A stretch of DNA of 64,000 nucleotides from Escherichia coli (GCF_050920415.1 NZ_CP169309.1), one strand, 5' to 3'. Positions 2,922 to 40,788 are shown, counted from the stretch's first letter. Numbers and translations: made by a program. Notes: generated by a model from the letters alone, not told the origin.

Positions 2922-4208
2922 TTACTCCGCCACACTCTCACGCAGCGGTTTCACAGGAAAAACTTTTACCTGCTTAATCATATTGTCCTGTACATCGAGA
3001 ATATCGATATCGTACTCGCCAATACGCACGCGAGTTCCTGCGACAGGAATCTCTTCCAGTGCCTCAAGAATGACGCCATTAACCGTTCGTGCATCATCTT
3101 CCGGTAGATGCCAGTTAAAGGCTTTGTTGATTTCCCGCACGTTGGCAGTGCCATCGATAATCACCGAACCGTCGTTTTGCGGCGTGACCTCTTCGGCGAG
3201 CGTTGGCGACATCGACGTGGTGAAATCACCAACAATCTCTTCGAGAATATCTTCGACCGTCACCAGACCCTGAATATCTCCATACTCGTTGACGACCAGG
3301 CCGACTTTCTTTTTGTTGCGCTGAAACTTCACCAGCTGCGTGCTGAGCGGCGTACCTTCCGGGACAAAATAGATTTCGTCCGCGGCGCGTAGCATGGTTT
3401 CTTTGGTGAACTCTTTTTTCTCCGACATCAACCGCCAGGCTTCACGCACACGCAGCATACTGATGGCGTCGTCCAGCGAGTCACGGTAGAGCACGATGCG
3501 TCCGTGAGGTGAGTGGGAGAGTTGGCGGAGAATCGATTTCCAGTCATCGTTGATATCAATACCGATAATTTCACTACGCGGCACCATGATGTCATCGACG
3601 GTCATCTTTTCCAGATCGAGTACCGACAGCAGCATATCCTGATTGCGACGGGAAATTTGTGAGCGCGATTCGTGCACGATAGTACGCAACTCTTCTTTGC
3701 TCAAAGAGCCGCTAACCACGATATCGGTTTTGATGCCCATCATGCGCATTAACATTCGGGTAATAGCATTCAGCAACCAGACCAGCGGCATCATCAAAAT
3801 TTGTAGCGGTGCCAGCAGAAAACTACTTGGATAGGCGACTTTTTCCGGGTACAGCGCGGCAATGGTTTTCGGCAATACTTCAGCAAAAACCAGTACGACA
3901 AAAGTTAGTACACCAGTCGCAATTGCCACGCCCGCATCCCCGTACAAACGCATCCCCACAATAGTACCGAGCGCGGAGGCAAGAATATTGACCAGGTTAT
4001 TGCCGATTAACACCAGGCTTATCAGGCGGTCTGGCTTACGCAGCAATTTTTCGACGCGTTTGGCCGAGCGATTACCCTGTTTCGCCATATGCCGCAGACG
4101 ATAGCGGTTGAGTGTCATCATTCCGGTTTCGGACCCGGAAAAATAGGCTGAAATGACCACCATGATGATCAGAATAATGATCAACGTAGTAGTAGAAATG
4201 TGTTCCAG
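2922..4208 (-). CDS. yfjD: CNNM/CorC-family inner membrane protein YfjD (DUF21-CBS-CorC_HlyC); CTG occupies the expected start codon position
   Basis: ORF track gives 2922-4184 (420 aa); frame stays open upstream to an SD aaggag followed 6 nt later by CTG at 4206-4208, giving 428 codons, the K-12 YfjD length as recalled. Confidence 0.85.
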   Translation of the reverse strand: MEHISTTTLIIILIIMVVISAYFSGSETGMMTLNRYRLRHMAKQGNRSAKRVEKLLRKPDRLISLVLIGNNLVNILASALGTIVGMRLYGDAGVAIATGVLTFVVLVFAEVLPKTIAALYPEKVAYPSSFLLAPLQILMMPLVWLLNAITRMLMRMMGIKTDIVVSGSLSKEELRTIVHESRSQISRRNQDMLLSVLDLEKMTVDDIMVPRSEIIGIDINDDWKSILRQLSHSPHGRIVLYRDSLDDAISMLRVREAWRLMSEKKEFTKETMLRAADEIYFVPEGTPLSTQLVKFQRNKKKVGLVVNEYGDIQGLVTVEDILEEIVGDFTTSMSPTLAEEVTPQNDGSVIIDGTANVREINKAFNWHLPEDDARTVNGVILEALEEIPVAGTRVRIGEYDIDILDVQDNMIKQVKVFPVKPLRESVAE

Positions 4209-4228
4209 GGGAAACTCCTTTTCTGGGT

Positions 4229-38363: not shown

Positions 38364-39245
38364 ATGGATCTGCGCCGTTTTATTACGCTTAAAACCGTGG
38401 TGGAAGAGGGTTCCTTTTTGCGAGCTTCGCAAAAATTGTGCTGCACACAATCGACGGTGACTTTTCATATTCAGCAGCTTGAACAGGAGTTCTCAGTACA
38501 ATTGTTTGAGAAAATTGGTCGACGCATGTGCCTCACTCGCGAAGGCAAAAAGTTGCTGCCGCACATCTATGAACTCACCAGAGTGATGGATACGCTTCGT
38601 GAGGCTGCCAAAAAAGAGTCTGATCCGGACGGAGAACTGCGCGTTGTTTCAGGCGAAACGCTGCTCTCTTACCGAATGCCGCAGGTGTTGCAGCGTTTTC
38701 GGCAACGTGCACCAAAAGTGCGTTTATCACTGCAGTCGCTGAACTGTTACGTGATCCGTGATGCTCTACTGAATGATGAGGCCGACGTCGGTGTTTTTTA
38801 TCGCGTAGGAAATGATGATGCTCTGAATCGACGAGAATTGGGTGAACAATCGCTGGTGCTGGTGGCTTCACCGCAAATTGCAGATGTCGATTTTACCCAG
38901 CCGGGAAGACATAACGCCTGTAGTTTTATTATCAACGAACCGCAATGTGTCTTCCGGCAGATATTTGAGAGCACGCTGCGCCAGCGGCGGATCACGGTGG
39001 AAAATACCATTGAGCTTATAAGTATCGAAAGCATAAAGCGTTGTGTCGCGGCGAATATCGGAGTTAGCTATCTGCCGCGTTTTGCGGTGGCAAAAGAGTT
39101 GGAGTGCGGAGAATTAATCGAATTGCCTTTTGGCGAACAGTCGCAGACCATTACGGCAATGTGCGCACACCATGCCGGGAAAGCGGTTAGCCCGGCGATG
39201 CACACTTTTATTCAGTGTGTTGAAGAGTGTTTTTTGCCGGGATAA
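38364..39245 (+). CDS. yfiE: LysR-family transcriptional regulator YfiE
   Basis: 293-aa ORF with N-terminal LysR HTH; divergent from eamB. Confidence 0.9.
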   Translation: MDLRRFITLKTVVEEGSFLRASQKLCCTQSTVTFHIQQLEQEFSVQLFEKIGRRMCLTREGKKLLPHIYELTRVMDTLREAAKKESDPDGELRVVSGETLLSYRMPQVLQRFRQRAPKVRLSLQSLNCYVIRDALLNDEADVGVFYRVGNDDALNRRELGEQSLVLVASPQIADVDFTQPGRHNACSFIINEPQCVFRQIFESTLRQRRITVENTIELISIESIKRCVAANIGVSYLPRFAVAKELECGELIELPFGEQSQTITAMCAHHAGKAVSPAMHTFIQCVEECFLPG

Positions 39246-39249
39246 AAAT

Positions 39250-39450
39250 AATGCCGGGCTTAAACCCGGCACCCAACTTGTCGACGAAGTGCGTTTTGTT
39301 CATGCCGGATGCGGCGTGAACGCCTTATCCGGCCTACAAGATCGTGCAAATTCAATATATTGCATGAGCCATGTAGGCCTGATAAGCGTAGCGCATCAGG
39401 CAGTTTTGCGTTTGCCAGCACTTTTAATTCCGGGCTTAAACCCGGAATTA
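39250..39450. repeat. BIME/REP cluster: two inverted REP units bracketed by two copies of the palindrome ccgggcttaaacccgg
   Basis: Palindromes at 39253-39270 and 39428-39449; REP-like gccggatgcggcgtgaacgccttatccggcctac 39304-39337 and inverted gtaggcctgataagcgtagcgcatcaggca 39373-39402. Confidence 0.6.
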
Positions 39451-39453
39451 AGA

Positions 39454-40788
39454 TCACTCTTCTGTCGTTTGCGGTGGTACGCCTGTTCCGCTTGGTTTGC
39501 GTCGCTTACCAATATTTTTGGTATCGCGATGGCGTTTTTTCACCCGTGGCTTCTCTTTCTCTTTAGCCTTTTTCTTCTCGGCGCGTTTTGCCAGTACTTT
39601 CTTCGATGGCTTGCCGGTCTGCTTCTCGCTTGGCGCACGCGTTTTCGGGCGTAACTCATCAATTACGCGAGCTTTAATTGGCTCTTCAATATAACGGCCT
39701 ACTTTGCCCAGCAGCAGATGGTCATGAGCTTCAACCAGTGAAATCGCGGTTCCCTTACGACCAGCGCGAGCAGTACGTCCGATACGGTGTAAATAAGTAT
39801 CGCCACTGCGTGGCATATCGAAGTTAAAGACATGGCTGACATCCGGAATGTCGATACCGCGCGCGGCAACATCAGTGGCAACCAGTACGTTAACGCGACC
39901 TTCGGTCAGACGCTTGATCGCTTCGTTACGCTTGCCTTGTACCATCTCACCTTCGAGATAGCAGTTGTTGATGCCCGCTTCGCGCAGCCAGTTTGCCAAC
40001 TCATGCACACGCTCACGCTTACGCACAAATACAATTGAGCGGGTCGCTTCCGGTTGTTTTAACAGATGCACCAGTAATGCGGTTTTATGTTCCAGGTCAT
40101 CAGCGCGGTAATACCACTGATGAATCTTTTTGCGCTCACGGGTGGATGGATTCGCAGAAACTTCCACCGGATCTTCAAGCAGACGCTCGGCAAAATCCTG
40201 AATGGCATCGCCTTCAAGCGTTGCCGAGAAGAACAGAGTCTGTTTACGCCAGCGCGTTTCGCCCGCAATATGTTCGATATCCTGAGCAAAACCCATATCC
40301 AGCATTCGGTCTGCTTCGTCGAGGATCAGCGTTTCAACCGCGCGGCAATCGAAGTTCTCTTCTTTTATGTATTGCAGCAGACGTCCGGTCGTGGCAACCA
40401 CGATATCCTGGTTTTCGCTGAATACTTCCGCGTGGTTCATATAGGCTACGCCGCCGGTGATGGTGGCGATATCCAGATGCGTATGTTTCGCCAGTTCGCG
40501 GGCATGATCGGCCACCTGCATCGCCAATTCGCGAGTCGGGGTGAGGATCAAAATACGCGGCGGACCGGATTTCTTACGGGGAAAATCGAGCAGGTGCTGC
40601 AACGCTGGCAGCAGATACGCCGCCGTTTTACCGGTGCCTGTCGGCGCAGAACCGAGTACATCACGGCCATCGAGCGCAGGCGGAATGGCGGCAGCCTGAA
40701 TGGCGGTCGGGCGAGTGAAACCTTTATCCTGGAGGGCTTCCAGCAGGCTTTCGTCGAGTTCAAGTTCGGAAAAAGTCGTTACAGTCAT
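39454..40788 (-). CDS. srmB: DEAD-box RNA helicase SrmB
   Basis: 444-aa ORF with DEAD and SAT motifs and Lys/Arg-rich C-terminal tail. Confidence 0.95.

What the first reader, a model, noticed from the sequence alone, without database searches (positions are those of the whole stretch)
39250..39450. BIME-like REP cluster bracketed by a duplicated perfect palindrome between yfiE and srmB
The 208-bp gap between convergent yfiE and srmB holds two REP-like units in inverted orientation (39304-39337 and 39373-39402). Both sides carry the same palindrome ccgggcttaaacccgg (39253-39270 and 39428-39449), which also gives each gene a terminator-like hairpin. The symmetric hairpin-REP-REP-hairpin layout looks like a composite repeat element rather than two independent terminators.
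Basis: seen in the sequence. Interest (0 to 1): 0.25.

Follow-up and report, generated by a model that had tools for sequence, protein, structure and literature searches.

The report
BIME-1 insertion duplicated a terminator hairpin
A well-known small E. coli repeat (a BIME-1 pair of REP palindromes) sits between two convergent genes, and the matching hairpin on each side is the local terminator, copied when the repeat inserted; the same pattern at other sites may hint at how these repeats spread.

Summary
The 208-bp yfiE–srmB spacer contains a canonical BIME-1: Y REP, L linker with an IHF-like site, Z1 REP and two conserved outer motifs. A 23-nt direct repeat spaced 176 bp apart brackets it. 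Each copy is a GC-rich stem-loop, not a perfect palindrome.

The hairpin is not part of a dispersed composite element. It occurs only at this locus: once in 2,446 complete E. coli genomes and twice in 2,979. Genomes with one copy lack exactly 176 bp. E. albertii, Citrobacter and Cedecea also have a single hairpin, which reads as the srmB terminator. So the BIME-1 entered the ancestral terminator and the whole stem-loop was duplicated.

This is not peculiar to this site:
- 12 of 45 independent BIME-1 loci have a locus-specific hairpin repeat abutting the outer motifs.
- Four further empty/occupied pairs (pitA–uspB, ysgA–metE, tsx–yajD, fbp) show one hairpin when empty and two when occupied.

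The element and its presence/absence polymorphism are already known. I found no description of the hairpin duplication in the papers I could read. It does not fit the duplication-free IS200-like model proposed for REP mobility.

The parts
38364..39245 (+). yfiE (LysR-family regulator) coding sequence, stop TAA at 39243-39245
   Evidence: ORF list. Annotated as yfiE in the identical E. coli record.
39243..39251 (-). T-rich tail (TTATTTTTA on the minus strand) that follows hairpin A in the srmB direction. It overlaps the yfiE stop codon.
   Evidence: The terminator-like scan reports stem 39273..39250 on the minus strand with tail ATTTTTATCC. The empty O157 allele has the same tail.
39249..39271 (.). 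Hairpin A, the left copy of the duplicated target (TAATGCCGGGCTTAAACCCGGCA). Stem 39252-39258 pairs with 39265-39271; loop CTTAAA.
   Evidence: Direct repeat D2 and inverted repeat I10. RNA fold -13.6 kcal/mol on the plus strand and -17.6 on the minus strand. It is the only copy present in empty alleles and outgroups.
39272..39302 (+). Left outer motif of the BIME-1 (CCCAACTTGTCGACGAAGTGCGTTTTGTTCA), a diverged copy of the consensus TCAGATTGCTGACAAAGTGCGCGTTGTTCA
   Evidence: Consensus of 45 BIME-1 loci. At BLAST sensitivity it is single-copy per genome and has two allele classes.
39303..39337 (-). Y-type REP. Its GTAG is on the minus strand and faces the linker.
   Evidence: Sequence. Internal palindrome I4 and pairing with the other REP, I2 and I9. 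Matches the Y part of the search pattern and the consensus.
39338..39372 (+). L linker of BIME-1, with the IHF-like site ATTCAATATATTG at 39350-39362
   Evidence: Rfam ES036 at 48.1 bits against a gathering score of 37.6. One mismatch to WATCAANNNNTTR. The L linker and its IHF site are described in PMC3333891.
39373..39402 (+). Z1-type REP, with GTAG at 39373-39376
   Evidence: Sequence, inverted repeats I2 and I9, consensus.
39403..39424 (+). Right outer motif of the BIME-1 (GTTTTGCGTTTGCCAGCACTTT). Its consensus is TTTTGCGTTTGTCATCAGTCTCA, an inverted repeat of the left outer motif.
   Evidence: Consensus. The terminal 16 nt of the two consensus motifs match 13/16 in inverted orientation.
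39425..39447 (.). Hairpin B, the right copy of the duplicated target (TAATTCCGGGCTTAAACCCGGAA). In this allele the stem extends to 39422-39434 paired with 39441-39453.
   Evidence: Direct repeat D2 and inverted repeat I3. RNA fold -17.7 and -17.4 kcal/mol. No T-tract follows it on either strand.
39454..40788 (-). srmB (DEAD-box RNA helicase) coding sequence, stop TGA at 39456-39454
   Evidence: ORF list, annotation of the identical record.

Best explanation
The spacer is an ancestral 32-bp yfiE–srmB spacer that held one GC-rich stem-loop. That stem-loop is the intrinsic terminator in the srmB direction, with an A-tract on the yfiE side.

A complete BIME-1 of about 151-153 bp has inserted into it. 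The BIME-1 consists of outer motif, Y REP, L linker with an IHF-like site, Z1 REP and outer motif; it is the E. coli REP doublet, or REPIN. The insertion came with a direct duplication of the whole stem-loop: 25 nt in the K-12-type allele, of which 23 nt are still recognisable here. This adds exactly 176 bp.

Shown:
- the anatomy of the spacer;
- the exact 176-bp indel among strains;
- a single hairpin in the outgroups;
- the same hairpin–BIME-1–hairpin architecture, each with its own local hairpin, at many other loci.

Inferred:
1. Insertion mechanism. Joining took place at both feet of the extruded hairpin on opposite strands, or a cruciform was resolved so that each end kept a whole palindrome. 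Fill-in then duplicated the stem-loop. The enzyme is unknown. The REP-associated Y1 transposase is only a candidate.
2. Later copy-number change. The two hairpin copies act as substrates for unequal recombination or slippage. This would give precise loss (the empty alleles inside E. coli) and gain (two tandem units in Escherichia sp. E1V33).
3. Transcription. The duplication separated the A-tract, which stays on the left, from the downstream tail, which stays on the right. The hairpin next to each stop codon therefore has no U-tract in that gene's direction. srmB transcripts should run through hairpin B and the BIME-1 and end at hairpin A, so the BIME-1 becomes part of overlapping 3' UTRs.
For: Anatomy.

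Polymorphism at this locus:
- Full-length matches in E. coli span 601 bp and the shorter ones 425 bp, a difference of exactly 176.
- The alignment shows one hairpin and nothing else in strains ATCC 25922, O157:H7 and Ecol_732.
- 2,979 genomes have two hairpin places and 2,446 have one. This matches the 2,977 genomes that carry the left outer motif. No common allele therefore has two hairpins without the BIME.

Polarity: E. albertii, 11 Citrobacter loci, Cedecea neteri and Enterobacteriaceae bacterium 89 all have a single hairpin between yfiE and srmB.

Terminator identity: the single hairpin scores as terminator-like in the srmB direction in O157 and in C. youngae. In the window only hairpin A on the minus strand does.

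Generality:
- 12 of 45 distinct BIME-1 loci exceed the 99th percentile of a permuted-pair control for a flank-to-flank direct repeat.
- In those loci the left copy ends about 29 nt before the Y REP and the right copy starts about 22 nt after the Z1 REP. That is exactly outside the conserved outer motifs.
- The repeats fold at roughly -5 to -18 kcal/mol.
- The direct orientation scores at least as well as the inverted one in 15 of the top 16 loci.
- Hairpins are enriched next to the element.

Four more empty/occupied pairs show one hairpin against two: pitA–uspB and fbp, ysgA–metE and tsx–yajD. At fbp the repeat is a perfect 23-mer, and none of 5,426 complete E. coli genomes is occupied. There the occupied state is clearly the derived one.

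Copy-number change: E1V33 has three hairpins spaced 176/176.

Read-through in K-12: Rho termination regions lie beyond the spacer on both strands, at 2714601(+) antisense to yfiE and 2713962(-) antisense to srmB (PMC7815308 supplementary file 2).
Against: - About two thirds of the sampled BIME-1 loci show no significant flanking repeat. Either duplication is not obligatory or it decays. One decay route is seen at tsx–yajD in strain NDM6.
- No insertion event has been observed directly.
- IS200/IS605-type Y1 transposition, the model proposed for REP/BIME mobility, makes no target duplication (PMC3333891, PMC2817692). The obvious enzyme therefore does not predict the pattern.
- Occupied and empty alleles inside E. 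coli do not follow phylogroups simply. K-12, B strains, O26/O103/O111 and CE10 are occupied; O157:H7 and ATCC 25922 are empty (phylogroup assignments are from my own knowledge). Repeated precise loss, recombination or retained ancestral polymorphism must be invoked.
- No Term-seq 3' end is curated inside the K-12 spacer, so the transcriptional consequences remain inferred.
Confidence: 0.85

Rival explanations
1. Composite dispersed element. Hairpin–REP–REP–hairpin is one repeat unit, and its palindrome recurs next to REPs elsewhere in the genome.
For: The two hairpins are nearly identical and bracket the REP pair.
Against: - The extended hairpin is found only at this locus in 5,425 genomes and only twice in the window.
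- Other BIME-1 copies carry different, locus-specific hairpins.
- The hairpin exists without REPs in the outgroups.
Confidence: 0.02
2. Two independent terminators, one evolved for each convergent gene, with a BIME that happens to lie between them.
For: Each hairpin lies 2-6 nt from a stop codon and folds stably.
Against: - The copies share 21 of 23 nt in direct orientation, including the loop and the 5' TAAT.
- Outgroups and empty alleles have one hairpin serving both genes.
- The hairpin next to each gene lacks a T-tract in that gene's direction.
Confidence: 0.02
3. The occupied state is ancestral at this locus, and every empty allele arose by deletion between the two hairpin copies. The polymorphism would then reflect loss only and say nothing about insertion.
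For: - Cryptic-clade Escherichia (MOD1-EC7003, E1V33) are occupied.
- The two occupied allele classes are old: 84% identity in the left outer motif.
- Direct repeats of 23-25 nt are good deletion substrates, and E1V33 shows that the unit number changes.
Against: - E. albertii, Citrobacter and Cedecea have the single hairpin, so the duplication still had to arise within Escherichia.
- At fbp the occupied state is absent from all 5,426 complete genomes and has a perfect repeat. There the occupied state is derived.
- Deletion probably does account for some E. coli empty alleles, so this view is partly compatible with the best explanation.
Confidence: 0.07
4. The terminator was first duplicated in tandem, for example by slippage. 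A BIME-1 later landed between the copies, unrelated to the duplication.
For: It would reconcile the duplication with a transposition mechanism that makes no target repeat.
Against: - It requires the same two-step coincidence at 12 or more independent loci, each time with the repeat abutting the outer motifs to within about 3 nt.
- No allele with two hairpins and no BIME was detected: 2,979 genomes have two hairpin places against 2,977 with the BIME flank.
Confidence: 0.04

Closest known systems
BIME-1 (also called RIP or RIB elements) of E. coli
   Same: Y and Z1 REPs in inverted orientation, a long conserved L linker with an IHF consensus, an extragenic position at the 3' ends of genes, one unit per locus, dozens of copies per genome, and strain-to-strain presence/absence (PMC3333891; PMC1187871).
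   Different: Nothing in the element itself differs. The family descriptions I could read do not include the locus-specific duplicated hairpin that brackets it. The conserved outer motifs are probably the A and B motifs of Gilson et al. 1991; that is from memory and not checked.
REPINs mobilised by RAYT / TnpA(REP) Y1 transposases
   Same: A REP doublet in inverted orientation whose RNA is predicted to fold into a strongly structured form. It is non-autonomous and is proposed to be moved by a single-copy IS200-like transposase.
   Different: IS200/IS605-type transposition leaves no target duplication. Here a 20-27-nt duplication equal to the target stem-loop flanks the element.
[quoted passage not shown]
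   Same: Small, non-coding, with inverted-repeat termini (13/16 in the consensus) and flanked by a direct duplication of the target.
   Different: The duplication is long and variable, and its length follows the size of a hairpin rather than being fixed by a DDE transposase. No parent IS with matching ends is known. A review states that REPs 'do not display MITE signatures' (PMC3184786).
Bidirectional intrinsic terminators between convergent genes
   Same: The empty allele and the outgroups have a single GC-rich hairpin shared by two convergent genes, with an A-tract on one side and T-rich sequence on the other. REPs are reported inside 78 of 306 such terminators (preprint 10.64898/2026.03.23.713779).
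   Different: Here the hairpin qualifies as terminator-like only in the srmB direction. In the occupied allele the two tracts are separated onto different hairpin copies.
Structure-targeting mobile elements (group IIC introns at terminator stem-loops, the IS1111-attC group). From my own knowledge, not tested here.
   Same: Insertion is directed by a DNA hairpin rather than by a sequence.
   Different: Those elements insert beside the hairpin without duplicating it, and they encode their own enzymes.

Membership tests
BIME-1 / RIP / RIB | One Y-type and one Z1-type REP in inverted orientation, with GTAG/CTAC facing the linker | tested here: met
   The sequence at 39303-39337 and 39373-39402 and inverted repeats I2 and I9. 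The window sequence fits the pattern TCCGGCCTAC...GTAGGCCTGATAAG and the consensus of 45 loci.
BIME-1 / RIP / RIB | Long conserved L linker carrying an IHF consensus | tested here: met
   Rfam ES036, which is the L linker, scores 48.1 bits against a gathering score of 37.6. ATTCAATATATTG has 1 mismatch to WATCAANNNNTTR. IHF binding itself cannot be tested here.
BIME-1 / RIP / RIB | Extragenic, dispersed in many copies per genome | tested here: met
   It lies between two stop codons.
BIME-1 / RIP / RIB | A single unit per locus, not a tandem array | tested here: met
   There is one unit in the window, and at most two hairpin places in any complete E. coli genome. The exception is outside E. coli: E1V33 has two units.
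REPIN moved by an IS200/IS605-like Y1 transposase | Insertion without duplication of the target | tested here: not met
   A 23-25-nt direct repeat flanks the element here, and repeats of 18-27 nt flank it at other loci.
REPIN moved by an IS200/IS605-like Y1 transposase | A cognate RAYT (tnpA-REP) gene in the same genome | not tested
   I did not look for it. It is reported between yafL and fhiA in most E. coli (PMC3333891).
MITE | Terminal inverted repeats | tested here: met
   The consensus outer motifs match 13/16 in inverted orientation. The window copy is diverged.
MITE | Short target duplication of fixed length | tested here: not met
   The duplications are 20-27 nt and follow the size of the local stem-loop.
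Intrinsic (Rho-independent) terminator | A GC-rich stem-loop followed directly by a U-tract | tested here: inconclusive
   Hairpin A meets this on the minus strand only. Hairpin B does not meet it on either strand. The K-12 allele has no qualifying site at all.
Intrinsic (Rho-independent) terminator | Mapped RNA 3' ends at the hairpin | tested here: inconclusive
   No curated Term-seq 3' end lies at K-12 coordinates 27142xx-27144xx. Rho termination regions lie beyond the spacer on both strands.
   It is found only at this locus in 5,425 genomes and only twice in the window. BLAST could not detect bare 16-mers elsewhere.

The most novel reading that the evidence does not exclude
BIME-1 elements (E. 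coli REPINs) insert preferentially at intrinsic-terminator stem-loops. They do so by joins at both feet of the hairpin, which duplicates the whole stem-loop (20-27 nt, with the length set by the hairpin).

This would be a target-site signature not reported for REP/BIME/REPIN elements. It is incompatible with a simple IS200/IS605-type single-strand 'peel and paste'. It would give a concrete, assayable target for the long-unknown in vivo insertion mechanism. It would also mean that each insertion rewires a terminator, placing the REP doublet inside the 3' UTR ahead of the copy that keeps the U-tract.
Probability: 0.35. Interest if true: 0.65.

Novelty: already known. Interest (0 to 1): 0.4.

Why it matters
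For this locus alone it matters little. It is an ordinary BIME-1 that is also present in E. coli K-12, and such elements are known to vary between strains.

The bracket of duplicated hairpins is more informative. How REP/BIME elements spread has been an open question since the 1980s. Recent papers still call the in vivo insertion mechanism unknown or 'not fully established'.

A reproducible signature now exists: one terminator hairpin at empty sites and two at occupied sites, with constant element ends and a duplication length that follows the hairpin. It names a target and constrains the geometry of the reaction. It can be tested with a plasmid-borne terminator as bait.

It also predicts a regulatory effect. 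Insertion separates the terminator's stem-loop from its U-tract for one direction of transcription and extends the 3' UTRs of convergent genes into each other.

Tried and rejected
1. Looking for E. coli genomes with two or more tandem units, using a query across the unit junction. The 296 'full-coverage' hits were an artefact of joining two separate pieces of a single-unit allele (pieces = 2, span about 200 bp). One search, with at most 2 hairpin places per genome, shows that no complete E. coli genome has three hairpins.
2. Testing whether the 31-nt left flank is repeated in the genome by BLAST. It looked single-copy, so at first I took the flanks for unique DNA. The alignment of 45 loci later showed that they are diverged copies of conserved outer motifs, too short and too diverged for BLAST against 28 Gb.
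3. K-12 annotation. This copy of NC_000913.3 lists only CDS features here, so there is no REP name. A supplement places REP187 at 2.687 Mb and REP189 at 2.717 Mb, so this element is probably REP188. That is unverified.
4. Direct RNA 3'-end evidence. No curated Term-seq end lies in the K-12 spacer. The NAR 2022 Term-seq paper has no supplement held. The bidirectional-terminator table in the 2026 REP preprint does not list this pair in the stored part.
5. Primary 1990s literature. Bachellier et al. 1997 (Genetics) and Boccard & Prentki 1993 are not held. I cannot rule out that the flanking duplication was described there.
6. A consistent orientation of the BIME-1 relative to the terminator's T-tract. 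The five verified loci disagree, so I make no claim.
7. Searching for bare 16-mer copies across whole genomes.

Full report
**What is in the sequence**

yfiE (plus strand) ends with TAA at 39243-39245. srmB (minus strand) ends with TGA at 39456-39454. The spacer between them is 208 bp. From left to right it contains:
- a stem-loop, TGCCGGG-CTTAAA-CCCGGCA, at 39252-39271;
- 31 nt of flank;
- a REP at 39303-39337;
- a linker of about 35 nt;
- a second REP in the opposite orientation at 39373-39402;
- 22 nt of flank;
- a second stem-loop, whose stem is extended in this allele to 39422-39453.

The 16-mer CCGGGCTTAAACCCGG occurs exactly twice in the 64-kb window. About 0.08 matches are expected by chance. 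It is not a perfect palindrome, because its reverse complement differs at two positions. The loop has the same orientation in both copies. The real repeat is therefore a 23-nt direct repeat, 39249-39271 against 39425-39447, with two mismatches and 176 bp spacing.

**The centre is a canonical BIME-1**

The two REPs are of the Y and Z1 types, and their GTAG tetranucleotides face the linker. The linker matches Rfam ES036 above its gathering score. It carries ATTCAATATATTG, one mismatch from the IHF consensus. This fits the published definition of BIME-1: y plus z1, a long conserved L linker with an IHF site, and a single unit per locus (PMC3333891). The REP parts are highly repeated, with a median of 39 places per E. 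coli genome at the reporting cap.

**The hairpin belongs to the locus, not to a dispersed element**

A 41-nt query centred on the hairpin finds only this locus in 5,425 of 5,426 complete E. coli genomes. There is one place in 2,446 genomes and two places in 2,979, never three and never elsewhere. The 2,979 figure agrees with the 2,977 genomes that carry the flank next to the Y REP.

Genomes with one hairpin are exactly 176 bp shorter, 425 against 601 bp. The alignment shows a 32-bp spacer holding the single hairpin and nothing else.

I fetched the region downstream of srmB from 80 species. Wherever yfiE is the neighbour, outside E. coli and two unnamed Escherichia species, there is a single hairpin of the same kind. 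This covers E. albertii, eleven Citrobacter loci, Cedecea neteri and an unnamed enterobacterium. The hairpin has an A-run on the yfiE side.

That hairpin scores as terminator-like in the srmB direction in O157:H7 and in C. youngae. The ancestral state is therefore one hairpin, serving at least as the srmB terminator. The occupied allele arose within Escherichia.

**Copy number varies**

Escherichia sp. E1V33 has two tandem 176-bp units: three hairpins spaced 176 and 176 bp, with the units differing at 5 positions. The hairpin copies therefore behave as substrates for unequal exchange. This also offers a route to precise loss.

Inside E. coli the two states do not follow phylogroups simply (phylogroup assignments are from my own knowledge):
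- occupied: K-12, B strains, O26/O103/O111 and CE10;
- empty: O157:H7 and ATCC 25922.

Two old occupied allele classes exist, with 84% identity in the left flank. There are 178 genomes of the window type and 2,787 of the K-12 type. Each class also has a close counterpart in one of the unnamed Escherichia species. Some E. coli empty alleles are therefore probably secondary deletions. I could not separate these from retained ancestral alleles.

**The same architecture recurs at other BIME-1 copies**

A pattern scan of metagenome contigs for Y...Z1 doublets returned 121 matches, which fall into 45 distinct loci.

Their alignment shows that conservation extends beyond the REPs into two outer motifs:
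- left consensus: TCAGATTGCTGACAAAGTGCGCGTTGTTCA;
- right consensus: TTTTGCGTTTGTCATCAGTCTCA.

The two motifs are inverted repeats of each other, 13 of 16 at the termini. The 31-nt and 22-nt flanks in the window are diverged copies of these motifs. The inserted unit is thus a complete BIME-1 of about 151-153 bp.

Immediately outside these motifs, many loci carry a direct repeat that differs from locus to locus:
- 12 of 45 loci exceed the 99th percentile of a control in which left and right flanks from different loci are paired.
- In nearly all of them the left copy ends 28-31 nt before the Y REP and the right copy starts 21-24 nt after the Z1 REP.
- The repeats are GC-rich stem-loops of 18-27 nt, folding at roughly -5 to -18 kcal/mol.
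- The direct orientation scores at least as well as the inverted one in 15 of the top 16 loci.
- A stable hairpin adjoins the element on at least one side in 29 of 45 loci. Adjacent windows are more stable than windows 100 nt away (Mann-Whitney p = 5e-4).

**Four more empty/occupied comparisons give the same answer**

| Locus | Empty allele | Occupied allele |
|---|---|---|
| pitA–uspB | 173 bp shorter, with the single hairpin CGAGCGGGTCAGTTTACTGGCCCGCTT | K-12 and at least 1,940 other genomes; that hairpin lies on both sides |
| ysgA–metE | one hairpin in E. coli | a related contig has hairpin–BIME-1–hairpin |
| tsx–yajD | one hairpin | a contig has two; strain NDM6 keeps the BIME-1 but has lost the right outer motif and right hairpin |
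| fbp | all 5,426 complete E. coli genomes | one metagenome contig, with a perfect 23-nt repeat |

The NDM6 allele shows one way in which one-sided loci can arise. At fbp the insertion is clearly the derived state.

In every case the A-tract stays with the left copy and the T-tract with the right copy. The duplication therefore covers the stem-loop only. The four loci whose flanking genes could be read in both alleles (srmB–yfiE, pitA–uspB, ysgA–metE, tsx–yajD) lie between convergent genes.

**Mechanism (inference)**

The element ends are constant, while the duplication length follows the local hairpin. This requires one join at each foot of the hairpin, on opposite strands. An equivalent route is resolution of an extruded cruciform into two ends that each keep a whole palindrome, followed by capture of the element and fill-in.

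The REP-associated Y1 transposase recognises hairpin feet in single-stranded DNA, so it is a candidate. However, IS200/IS605-type transposition leaves no target repeat. The enzyme and pathway therefore remain open.

The two right-hairpin alleles each carry a both-sided change that keeps a base pair, and one-sided intermediates are seen in other sequences. This is consistent either with selection on the stem or with template-directed correction within a quasi-palindrome.

**Consequences for transcription (partly inferred)**

In the window the only terminator-like site is hairpin A read in the srmB direction. Hairpin B, two bases after the srmB stop, has no U-tract. srmB transcripts should therefore cross hairpin B and the BIME-1 before reaching hairpin A. 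The predicted RNA is strongly structured, at -92 kcal/mol with z = -6.8.

In the K-12 allele the distal hairpin has a C·A mismatch in that direction, and no site qualifies. Consistent with leaky termination, published bicyclomycin data place Rho termination regions beyond the spacer on both strands. These lie at 2714601(+) antisense to yfiE and 2713962(-) antisense to srmB (PMC7815308 supplementary file 2). No curated 3' end lies inside the spacer.

**Comparison with what is known**

Already described:
- BIME-1 itself and its location at 3' ends of genes;
- its IHF site;
- its strain-to-strain variability: 71% of BIME-1 length lies in strain-specific loops (PMC1187871), and 'excisions of a whole BIME-1' appear in the abstract of Bachellier et al. 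1997, as I recall it.

REPs between convergent genes and inside bidirectional terminators have also been noted (preprint 10.64898/2026.03.23.713779).

I found no mention of a duplicated terminator or of any target duplication for REP/BIME/REPIN elements in the papers I could read. One review states that REPs lack MITE signatures.

**Verdict**

The feature is real. It is an ordinary, already-known BIME-1, and its bracket of identical hairpins is a duplication of the local terminator rather than part of a composite repeat. The locus itself deserves low interest. The general hairpin-duplication signature deserves a follow-up census and a check of the literature.

Noticed in passing
L005 (E. coli Yu5), corresponding to window 39318-39321: A 1,416-bp frameshifted IS3-family element sits at the tip of the Y REP hairpin of this BIME, with GAAC present on both sides. 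This is the behaviour reported for IS1397, which targets BIME palindromic units.
   Followed up: partly
L006 (E. coli KS-NP019), corresponding to window 39375-39376: IS621 (IS110 family, 1,277 bp) is inserted directly after the GTAG of the Z1 REP of this BIME.
   Followed up: partly
L012 (Escherichia sp. E1V33), spacer 3833-4222: There are two tandem copies of the whole 176-bp unit, giving three hairpins and two BIME-1s. The units differ at 5 of 176 positions. BIME-1 is described as occurring singly.
   Followed up: partly
window 39250-39425 compared with K-12 (L007): The window unit and the K-12 unit differ at 9 of 176 positions. Eight of these fall in the first 49 nt (left hairpin and left outer motif) and one in the remaining 127. 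This suggests a recombination breakpoint, or homogenisation of the REP core with other copies.
   Followed up: no
window 39429-39447 and the same hairpin in L001, L011 and L109: The right hairpin shows two independent both-sided changes that keep a base pair. In the window G-C became T-A, and in K-12 G-C became A-T. One-sided intermediates occur in Escherichia sp. MOD1-EC7003 and in a metagenome contig.
   Followed up: partly
L132 against L211 (fbp terminator): The stems are identical, but the 6-nt loop is reverse-complemented between the two sequences (AGCAAT against ATTGCT). This is a hairpin loop inversion.
   Followed up: no
window 39338-39380: The Rfam 'sRNA' family ES036 (CssrF) matches the L linker of BIME-1. 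The naRNA4 model gives partial, sub-threshold matches to the Y REP. The ES036 model thus matches part of a dispersed repeat here.
   Followed up: no
window 39235-39246 and 39260-39271: The last yfiE codons (TGCCGGGATAAA) resemble the 5' arm of hairpin A and can pair with its 3' arm (83% complementary). This gives an alternative stem that overlaps the stop codon (repeats D1 and I8).
   Followed up: no
L214 (E. coli NDM6), tsx–yajD spacer: The BIME-1 is retained, but the right outer motif and the right hairpin copy are deleted (about 40 bp). The BIME is left directly joined to the terminator's T-tract.
   Followed up: partly
K-12 coordinates 2714601(+) and 2713962(-), outside the spacer: Published Rho termination regions lie antisense within yfiE and within srmB. 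Convergent read-through across the spacer therefore occurs in both directions in K-12 (PMC7815308 supplementary file 2).
   Followed up: partly
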